From contig CAXHJY010000671.1 in assembly GCA_964016885.1 (NCBI GenBank), positions 10,651-74,650 of the forward strand: 64,000 nucleotides of DNA, given 5' to 3'. Positions 23,955 through 56,333 of the stretch are shown here, one piece after another. A program made the translations under genes and the position numbers. Numbering within the stretch: the first letter of the stretch is position 1; each line of letters starts with the position of its first letter. The notes under the pieces are model-generated. The model was not told the origin of the DNA, searched no databases, and saw only the letters and a program-made list of their open reading frames with translations. The DNA is from Eledone cirrhosa. Taxonomy: Eukaryota.

Positions 23955-24572
23955 GTTTGTGTGTGTGTGTCTGTGTGTATGTGTGTATGTCTTCATCGAA
24001 TCAGGCAAACTCTTGGTGGTATTGATGACAGTTTAAATGGAAAGTCCATATCTGGTCTACATTATTTATAAATTGTTTAAAGGTTGAAGATACAGTCATG
24101 GGAGAAAATTGAATAAATGCGATATGTCTTACGTCGAAATAACCGTTAAGAAACTGCAAATCCACATTAAAGAATACGTTCATACAAATGCTTCGTGCAA
24201 TAAATTCCATCTCTAGATATATCATATTATGGATACTACGCTAACTACCAAAGCTGCGCAGCGGAATATTAGAAACCTGAGGATTAAAGAGTTTATCCTT
24301 ATTAATAATTTATATCATCCATCAATAACAGACAAGAATGGATCGACGATAGTAGCTAAATATAACATTAATAATGTGTGCATATCACGCCGATGATTCC
24401 TACATATAGGTAAAGGTCAGATATAAGGTGGTCCTCCATGTTTGTTGGTCTAGATGGAGAATAATATAATCTGATATATTGAAAGAGGACAGGAATGACT
24501 TCACTGGTGAATGGTGTGCTTTAATAATCAAGGGAAGTAATTCTTCACTTTTTTCAAATGCCTATACATGTA

Positions 24573-53843: not shown

Positions 53844-53852
<9 letters not shown>

Positions 53853-54314
53853 GAGATAAGCGGAGCAAGTAAAATTCAAACAATTTCTTAAAACAAATTA
53901 AAAAATATAATTTAAATATTTACCTAATCCATTTGCTTTTACCGACGGTTTCACCTTACAAAAGATTGGAGATCCTAGGGATCTCCAATGGAAATGTTCG
54001 GATCATCAGAGAGCATTTTCTTTTCCTAGGACAGAAGTCCCAAGAACGGCAAAATATATTGCCACCTGCCAGCTAGCAGAGGATCTCGAATCTTTTGTAA
54101 GGTGAAACCGTCGGTAAAAGCAAATTGATTAGGTAAATATTTAAATTATATTTTTTAATTTATTTTAAGAAATTGTTTGAATTTTACTTGCTCCGCTTAT
54201 CTCAATTTTATAGTTCTGGTATGTCAAAGTAATACCATGGAACACCACTGTATCATAGACACCCTATATATTCCCAGGGGTACTTAGTACCTGTGAGGAT
54301 ATTAATCTCCTTTT
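53844..54314. mobile_element. Family E fold-back element: 133-bp arms, ~103-nt loop, 3' tail
   Basis: Arms 53844-53976 and 54080-54212 with a few mismatches; tail homologous to 55768-55870. Confidence 0.85.
53934..54015 (-). ncRNA. Type-I hammerhead ribozyme, family E
   Basis: tgctct CTGATGA [long stem II containing attggagatcc-cta-ggatctccaat] GAAACCGTCGGTA aaagca; one stem I mismatch. Confidence 0.7.
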
Positions 54315-55423: not shown

Positions 55424-55492
55424 ATCAAGGTTTAGCAAATAAGAAAAAGTTTCAAAATAAATTTCAAAAAATTCACTGTACTTACTATGGTT

Positions 55493-55579
55493 ACCTTTAC
55501 CGAAACGGTTTCGAGTCTCAAAAATAAATGGATAGTCCTTGCGGGCCTCCATTGAAAAGATAAACTCTCGTCAGAAGGT
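55493..55579 (-). ncRNA. Type-I hammerhead ribozyme, E-like, canonical core
   Basis: acctt CTGACGA gagt...actc GAA accg-ttt-cggt A aaggt; G-C closing pair on stem II, GUA site. Confidence 0.85.
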
Positions 55580-55702
55580 TCTTTTCACTCGGAGAATATA
55601 AAATTCCCGAGTTCGAATTACGAACTGGCGCTATTCAAAATTGTTCCCGAGATGAGAATGAATGATTTGGAAGCAATTCTGTCCATATATATACATATAT
55701 AT

Positions 55703-56240
55703 ATATTTAAATCGTATTTTAATTTATTTAAAAGATTGTTTAATGTTTACTTGTTCCGCTCATTTTTATAGTTCTGGTATCTCAAATTAGTACCATTGAA
55801 CAACAACGATTATAGACACCTTGTATATTTCCGTAGGTACTTAGTACCTGCTGGAATATCTATATCATTTTATATGTATTCTCCTTCTATGTAGAGAACA
55901 AAATGTTGTATTGTGCTGCTATTTTTTTTTTAGCGGCATGAAGTATCAACGAGTCTATAATATCCTGTTTTTACTTACGGCCTATTTATGTGTAGGTCAA
56001 TTTAACGGACTGACATTATGCATCGGGTAGGAAGCGATATATTTACAAACTATGAGGCTTTATGCCCTATGGTAGGGAAATAGCTGTCTGAAGAGCTAAT
56101 TCTTTCCATTGGAAATCTCTGAATTTCCAATCTTTTGATTAGTGAAACCGTCGGTAACAGCAATAGAACAGGTGAATATTTAAATCGTATTTTAATTTAT
56201 TTAAAAGATTGTTTAATGTTTACTTGTTCCGCTCATTTTT
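55703..56240 (+). mobile_element. Family E 473-bp unit with 65-bp terminal direct repeat (retrozyme/mini-PLE-like)
   Basis: 55703-55767 is identical to 56176-56240; one hammerhead inside; microsatellite flanks. Confidence 0.75.
56083..56161 (+). ncRNA. Type-I hammerhead ribozyme, family E
   Basis: gctgt CTGAAGA gctaat...attggaaat-ctctga-atttccaat...attagt GAAACCGTCGGTA acagc; predicted cleavage after 56156. Confidence 0.85.
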
Positions 56241-56241
56241 G

Positions 56242-56333
<92 letters not shown>

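What the first reader, a model, noticed from the sequence alone, without database searches (positions are those of the whole stretch)
55703..56240. Permuted 473-bp ribozyme unit with 65-bp terminal redundancy: possible retrocopy of a circular RNA
Seen: the element begins with sequence that lies about 20 nt downstream of its own predicted cleavage site (55703-55767 = 56176-56240). It runs through the tail that ends the 54-kb relative, then ~210 bp of non-coding spacer, then an intact hammerhead. Inference: a 1.14-mer is what reverse transcription around a ~473-nt circular RNA, or a tandem-pLTR mini-PLE, would leave.
Basis: partly seen in the sequence, partly recalled or inferred. Interest (0 to 1): 0.75.

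Follow-up and report, generated by a model that had tools for sequence, protein, structure and literature searches.

The report
Truncated hammerhead retrozyme with Penelope ends
This is one shortened copy of an abundant protein-free jumping repeat carrying a predicted self-cutting RNA motif, and the way its relatives start, end and repeat suggests that Penelope-type retrotransposon enzymes likely copy it into the genome from a small RNA, probably a circle.

Summary
In detail: a 473-bp unit, an exact 65-bp terminal repeat and a type I hammerhead whose stems covary. It is one 5'-truncated copy (1.14 units) of a non-coding family with at least 808 ribozyme copies in this 3-Gb genome: an animal non-LTR retrozyme, i.e. 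a non-autonomous Penelope-like element. The 65-bp length is incidental. Copies start anywhere round the unit but end at two fixed sites about 85 and 190 nt past the cut, in (TA)n; 18 of 24 two-armed insertions pair one end of each kind, none two alike. That is the Penelope 'tail' signature. The window's identical repeat says nothing about a circle (it equals the family majority). A younger sister subfamily does: one 19+9-unit two-armed insertion carries a variant in all 28 passes that occurs nowhere else in the genome, junctions across the cut are seamless, and all-unit variants lean A>G. Against: arrays also homogenise after insertion, no autonomous partner was found, and cleavage, expression and circles are untested. 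Circle template about 60%. This scan has reported the same kind of element many times on other DNA of this and other genomes.

The parts
55703..56240 (+). Whole insertion: 1.14 units of a 473-bp non-coding hammerhead unit, 5'-truncated, single arm
55703..55767 (+). 5' copy of the 65-bp repeat (unit positions 20-84, counted from the cut); most of a conserved hairpin that ends just before end site A
55768..55871 (+). 'Tail': the roughly 105 nt between the family's two fixed 3' ends (site A near 55767-55770, site B near 55871-55879); conserved hairpins
55872..56082 (+). Non-coding spacer of the unit; predicted to pair with the tail; holds an AT-rich box at 56037-56046 that may be a promoter element (inferred by eye)
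56083..56161 (+). Type I hammerhead: stem I 56083-56087/56157-56161, core 56088-56094 and 56144-56147, extended stem II 56095-56143, short self-complementary stem III 56147-56155, predicted cut 56156/56157
56176..56240 (+). 3' copy of the 65-bp repeat; the element ends at fixed site A
55685..55702 (.). Upstream (TA)n target tract; no target-site duplication can be told apart
56241..56330 (.). Downstream microsatellite flank, short TA run then (AC)n
53849..54312 (.). Sister-family insertion (72-80% identical): two arms head to head, minus arm ending at the site A equivalent, plus arm at the site B equivalent; its family has about 470-bp tandem units with a homologous spacer

Best explanation
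The window holds one 5'-truncated copy of an abundant protein-free hammerhead repeat whose copies end at two fixed sites in (TA)n tracts, and which is likely pasted in by a Penelope-type reverse transcriptase/endonuclease copying a unit-length RNA that is probably circular. Shown: family, unit, permuted starts, two fixed ends, (TA)n targets, two-armed insertions with one end of each kind, multimers, seamless junctions at the cut. Inferred: (1) multimeric loci are transcribed; (2) hammerheads, probably as dimers, cut out monomers that are ligated to circles; (3) a Penelope-type protein nicks both strands of a (TA)n tract and starts copying at site A from one strand and site B from the other; (4) copying runs back through the ribozyme junction and round the unit for a variable distance, and the two cDNAs join head to head or one is lost. 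Here copying began at site A (56240) and stopped after 538 nt, one unit plus 65.
For: Ends: in an unbiased series (all 41 insertions hit by an exact core motif on C1, 39-197 Mb) 57 of 65 arms end at A (31) or B (26), 54 of 65 run into (TA)n, 24 are two-armed, 18 A+B, 0 A+A or B+B, 6 with an unclassified end. Same in 58 search-ranked window-like insertions: 74 of 80 arms, 18 of 22 pairs (one locus is in both sets). Two internal starts bounding a tail, AT-rich targets and copying from both strands are what a purified PLE protein does (PMC11167929). RT+GIY-YIG elements of this genome also end at two sites past a hammerhead-like motif, into (TA)n. Continuous template: 5' starts show no pile-up at the cut (2 of 65); 194 of 194 pattern hits across the cut have exact length (overlapping loci not merged). 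One template per insertion: repeated parts within an insertion differ by 4.4% against 8.6% between insertions (41 loci); L205/L206 (19.1+9.3 units, inverted) has two variants in every pass of both arms, and the motif for one occurs 27 times in the genome, all in that insertion, against 249 matches of the other allele. In 18 young insertions 5 of 7 sample-private all-pass substitutions are A>G against 2 of 40 partial ones (p 0.0003). Units fold as circles better than shuffles (z -4.6 to -6.2).
Against: No autonomous element sharing this hammerhead and tail in the 54 GIY-YIG loci examined, of 10,597 candidates. Long arrays change after insertion: one variant in 6 of 28 scattered passes and one in 2 adjacent units of L205/L206; one in 10 of 41 passes of a 41-mer whose 3' end is at neither site, so conversion could also spread a variant through an array. 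A second candidate private variant (L209) was not private: 11 more matches in 9 other places; another occurs in part of two other loci. In the window's own older subfamily only 7 strictly private variants are shared by both passes (about 2 expected), none A>G, and no arm above 2.03 units was seen in the loci fetched. The decisive multimers belong to a subfamily only about 73% identical to the window unit. In PMC11167929 unprocessed linear RNA was the main substrate in vitro and hammerhead cleavage was not needed.
Confidence: 0.62

Rival explanations
1. Same element and same Penelope-type enzyme, but the template is an uncut linear read-through transcript of a tandem master array; no circle is involved, and arrays are kept uniform by unequal exchange and gene conversion.
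For: Arrays long enough exist (41 units). Scattered shared variants show exchange among units. The B arm starts near site A, as twin priming on one long RNA predicts, in 2 of 18 and 4 of 18 pairs, about 1.3 expected in each set. Unprocessed RNA was the main substrate in vitro (PMC11167929).
Against: The 28-pass variant has no carrier elsewhere in the assembly and is on both inverted arms; the known 41-mer has the other allele and its own all-unit variant. All-pass variants lean A>G on the ribozyme strand, which DNA-level homogenisation does not predict.
Confidence: 0.27
2. The template is the hammerhead-cut linear monomer, and multimers arise by repeated template jumps from its 5' end to a 3' end.
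For: Intact hammerhead core in nearly all copies; one-haplotype arrays fit re-use of one molecule.
Against: 5' starts are not enriched at the cut (2 of 65 and 5 of 80); junction length is exact in 194 of 194 hits, whereas jumps between RNA ends often add or lose bases (own knowledge, R2 RT).
Confidence: 0.07
3. A DNA-level satellite or a local 65-bp duplication beside a solo Penelope terminal repeat; no RNA step of its own.
For: The window's repeat is short and sits in unstable microsatellite.
Against: Dispersed copies on many contigs with the same unit, fixed 3' ends, random 5' ends, A+B arms and covarying RNA helices.
Confidence: 0.04

Closest known systems
Metazoan non-LTR retrozymes (coral, mussel, axolotl; PMC7229834, passages plus sections 14 and 17 read; bioRxiv 10.64898/2026.07.22.740005, parts 1-3 of 5 read)
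   Same: Non-coding, low-GC (33%) unit with one type I hammerhead, monomers to long tandem arrays, thousands of copies, PLEs in the same genome; circle-templated copying by a PLE is the cycle those papers propose.
   Different: Unit is 457-473 bp, slightly above the 150-450 bp quoted. The parts read do not describe two fixed ends, two-armed insertions or (TA)n targeting for retrozymes. Circles were shown there and are untested here. Supplements were not seen.
Endonuclease-bearing Penelope-like elements and their pLTR/tail (PMC11167929, parts 1-2 of 4 read; PMC8557442 and PMC4209133, passages read)
   Same: 5' truncation, partial tandems, inverted upstream copy, tail at one end only, microsatellite targets, hammerhead with short palindromic stem III upstream of two RT start sites.
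   Different: No ORF; tail about 105 nt rather than 30-40; arrays to 41 units; stem II is long rather than minimal; no sequence match to an autonomous family was found.
Non-autonomous Chlamys elements such as MRC1 (PMC8557442, passage read)
   Same: Non-autonomous PLE derivatives forming pLTRs and multicopy head-to-tail insertions.
   Different: Green algae; that clade lacks canonical hammerheads; those share 3' sequence with autonomous families.

Membership tests
Metazoan non-LTR retrozyme | One type I hammerhead per unit | tested here: met
   Core, three stems, covariation: 93.7% of cells paired, 7 of 25 pairs changed on both sides in 16 chosen sequences; Rfam silent
Metazoan non-LTR retrozyme | Short non-coding low-GC unit in tandem repeats, dimers to multimers | tested here: met
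   No ORF; GC 33%; up to 2.03 units in the window's subfamily, 19, 9 and 41 units in a sister subfamily
Metazoan non-LTR retrozyme | At least two consecutive ribozymes at the locus (the 'active' criterion of the 2026 preprint) | tested here: not met
   The window copy has one cut site; other copies of its subfamily hold a full cut-to-cut unit
Metazoan non-LTR retrozyme | Self-cleavage of the RNA | not testable with these tools
   Needs an in vitro assay; 8 of 9 Xenopus dimers did not cut in the preprint
Metazoan non-LTR retrozyme | Expressed as circular monomer RNA | not testable with these tools
   No RNA data set was available
Non-autonomous Penelope-like element | Two fixed 3' ends downstream of the hammerhead (tail) | tested here: met
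   57 of 65 arms
Non-autonomous Penelope-like element | 5' truncation, partial tandems and inverted 5'-truncated copy | tested here: met
   24 of 41 two-armed, 21 of 41 with an arm above 1.03 units
Non-autonomous Penelope-like element | AT-rich or microsatellite target | tested here: met
   54 of 65 arms run into (TA)n
Non-autonomous Penelope-like element | Terminal sequence shared with an autonomous PLE family | tested here: inconclusive
   None in 54 GIY-YIG loci of 10,597 candidates; the only hit was a separate mini dimer beside an ORF
snRNA-type internal promoter | Spacer resembles upstream regions of this genome's U6 or U2 genes | tested here: not met
   Local alignments with 5 upstream regions no better than shuffles

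The most novel reading that the evidence does not exclude
The family is a genomic record of rolling-circle retrotransposition: one Penelope-type protein dimer loads on a single, sometimes A-to-I-edited, ribozyme RNA circle at two fixed sites and copies it round and round from both strands of a cut (TA)n tract, leaving two back-to-back arrays that fix that molecule's edits in DNA.
Probability: 0.4. Interest if true: 0.75.

Novelty: new member of a known kind. Interest (0 to 1): 0.5.

Why it matters
The papers read propose, but do not show, that animal retrozymes are copied from circular RNA by Penelope-type enzymes. This family gives the start sites, the target and a two-arm rule, which define a direct in vitro test, and one insertion whose 28 passes share a variant found nowhere else in the genome. 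If the A>G bias is editing, edited RNA is being written back into the genome. The window copy itself is an ordinary, ageing, dead-end truncation.

Tried and rejected
Rfam: no hammerhead hit at gathering or E<=10. No RNA holder listed; three contig sets of unknown kind from one sample were laid and only show the family as DNA-like repeats; no evidence either way on expression. snRNA promoter match: none. Autonomous partner: BLAST and an HMM from 19 copies over 54 GIY-YIG loci found none. Editing in the older subfamily: the A>G excess among shared variants (2.4-fold) vanished when only rare variants were counted (0 of 7, 2 of 12), so it is not used. L209's variant as a second genome-private case: rejected. 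The window's identical 65 bp as evidence of a circle: rejected. The hammerhead fold is not the lowest-energy fold of the isolated stretch; the energy printed used a mis-set helix and is discarded. For covariation, 6 of 22 script picks were left out on sight as lying outside the mapped arms, and 2 of 18 aligned rows (one unrelated, one rearranged) were dropped. Literature searches for octopus+Penelope+ribozyme, retrozyme+Neptune and Penelope+rolling circle+circRNA+target-primed found no description of this family or of two-armed retrozyme insertions; the library lacks most subscription papers, and supplements were not seen.

Full report
Observation. 55703-55767 and 56176-56240 are identical over 65 bp, 473 apart. 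A type I hammerhead lies at 56083-56161 with a predicted cut at 56156/56157. Rfam has no match. In 16 diverse family sequences the drawn structure has 93.7% of cells paired and 7 of 25 pairs changed on both sides; no shuffle of 500 reached the covariation score and 12 of 500 reached the pair count (the structure was drawn from these sequences, so the counts lean towards it). Of 117 distinct ribozyme sequences found by a pattern that allows C or U at the first core position, 113 have CUGANGA. Stem III is three pairs and self-complementary, the type reported to need a dimer (PMC4209133, passages). There is no ORF and no PLE protein remnant in the unit. Unit positions below count from the cut.

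Family. The element gave 2931 first-look candidates in the 3.0-Gb own genome; the 40 scored are full-length or near-full-length matches at 86-94% apart from self. The spacer alone gave 1010. An exact 18-nt core motif occurs 808 times, control 0. Subfamilies of 457-473 bp are 72-100% identical to the window unit. The 54-kb relative is a two-armed insertion of a sister family with about 470-bp units and a homologous spacer.

Anatomy of insertions. I took all 41 insertions hit by the motif on contig C1 between 39 and 197 Mb as an unbiased series. Of 65 arms, 31 end at site A (positions 77-97), 26 at site B (180-200) and 8 elsewhere; 54 run into (TA)n. 24 insertions have two head-to-head arms: 18 are A+B, none A+A or B+B, 6 have an unclassified end. 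21 have an arm above 1.03 units. 5' starts are spread round the unit; 2 of 65 lie near the cut (no excess), 9 of 65 in the stem II hairpin (p 0.02). A search-ranked set of 58 window-like insertions agrees: 74 of 80 arms at A or B, 18 of 22 pairs A+B. The window copy is a single arm from position 20 to site A, so its 65-bp overlap is simply 84 minus 19. It differs from its subfamily majority at 20 of 473 positions, 4 of them private, three in a conserved spacer block: an ageing copy with one cut site.

Which enzyme. A purified Anolis PLE protein nicks both strands at AT-rich DNA and starts copying at two internal RNA sites that bound the genomic tail (PMC11167929, parts 1-2). Partial tandems, an inverted 5'-truncated copy and a tail at one end are general PLE features (PMC8557442, passages). 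This genome has 10,597 GIY-YIG candidates. Those fetched include long RT+GIY-YIG frames (RVT_1 at E 2e-6 but under its cut-off for two of three) with the cysteine motif before GIY-YIG that PMC8557442 gives for Neptune and Nematis; no tree was built. One such family ends roughly 75 or 140 nt past its own hammerhead-like motif, into (TA)n, with L122 showing one end of each kind on opposite strands. No autonomous family sharing this element's ends was found in 54 loci. The enzyme class is therefore inferred from footprints; the partner is unknown.

Circle or line. The cut linear monomer is unlikely as template: no 5' pile-up at the cut and exact length across the cut in 194 of 194 pattern hits (overlapping loci counted more than once, and the pattern needs intact flanks). 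Within window-like insertions, repeated parts differ by 4.4% against 8.6% between insertions, and share non-majority bases at 2.8% against 0.8% (41 loci, 8391 positions); most of this reflects sub-lineages, as only 7 strictly private variants are shared, about 2 expected. The window's own repeat is uninformative. The young 457-bp subfamily is sharper. L205/L206 is one insertion of 19.1 units ending at A and 9.3 inverted units ending at B. Two variants are in all 29 and 28 passes on both arms. The motif for one occurs 27 times in the genome, all inside this insertion; the other allele has 249 matches. A 41-unit array has the common allele and its own all-unit variant. In 18 young insertions, 5 of 7 sample-private all-pass substitutions are A>G on the ribozyme strand against 2 of 40 partial ones (p 0.0003); in an overlapping set of 15 the figures were 4 of 9 against 4 of 41 (p 0.03). 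None of the five has a 5' G and three have a 3' G, as ADAR prefers (preference recalled). This fits one RNA molecule, sometimes edited, copied many times.

Against the circle. Scattered shared variants (6 of 28 passes; 2 adjacent units; 10 of 41 passes) show that arrays exchange sequence after insertion or that the template was itself an array. The L209 variant has 11 matches in 9 other places, and the 41-mer's variant occurs in part of L210 and L216, so some 'private' changes are recurrent or lineage markers. A parent array could be missing from a single assembly. The A>G bias is not seen among rare variants of the window's subfamily. In vitro, unprocessed RNA was the main PLE substrate. I put the circle at about 0.6 and the uncut linear multimer at about 0.27.

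RNA structure and transcription. Units of four subfamilies fold as circles well below shuffles (z -5.8, -6.2, -4.6, -4.7). The consensus fold of 15 units has a helix joining tail and spacer across site B with an A-U/G-C swap in 8 versus 7 sequences, so the spacer is probably part of the functional RNA and site B is internal. An AT-rich box about 48 nt before the core is kept across subfamilies by eye, but the spacer does not resemble U6 or U2 upstream regions; the promoter is unresolved.

Comparison and verdict. It works like, and by the testable features belongs to, the animal non-LTR retrozymes (PMC7229834), which a 2026 preprint derives from PLEs. Copying from circles by PLE enzymes is proposed in PMC7229834 and PMC4209133. 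Searches found no paper on this family or on two-armed retrozyme insertions, within the library's limits. My reading of the two ends and inverted arms was noted before those look-ups; I took the word 'two-armed' from them. New member of a known kind; interest 0.5, carried by the family-level evidence rather than by this copy.

Noticed in passing
window 55425-55690, minus strand: An unrelated hammerhead element (core at 55574, predicted cut at 55498, ending in (TA)n) sits head to head with the finding across a short TA tract; contig depth suggests it is more abundant than the finding's family.
   Followed up: partly
window 11219+, 43154+, 44077-, 43022-, 38889-, 12457-: Further hammerhead-like motifs of at least three other families; 43022- and 43154+ form a close inverted pair.
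   Followed up: no
window 24055-24321: Remnant similar to a PLE GIY-YIG domain, E 1e-7.
   Followed up: no
L249-L251 (G000:C2:144.7157-144.7343 Mb): 40.7-unit array of the 457-bp subfamily, 99.7% uniform, 3' end at neither fixed site, one variant in all units and one in 10 of 41 passes, mostly towards the 3' end.
   Followed up: partly
L112, L113, L120, L122, L131, L091-L096: Autonomous RT+GIY-YIG elements carry hammerhead-like motifs with altered cores (UUGAAAA, UUGAUAA in place of CUGANGA) fixed across copies.
   Followed up: no
L113:5999-6920: A two-ribozyme dimer of a sister subfamily inserted in the (TA)n just past an autonomous PLE's end; nesting in TA tracts is common.
   Followed up: partly
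L225-L228 upstream; G000:C19:31.78-31.84 Mb and C3:307.35-307.45 Mb: U6 genes have an octamer-like box near -76 and a TATA-like box near -30; U6 and U2 lie in long tandem arrays.
   Followed up: no
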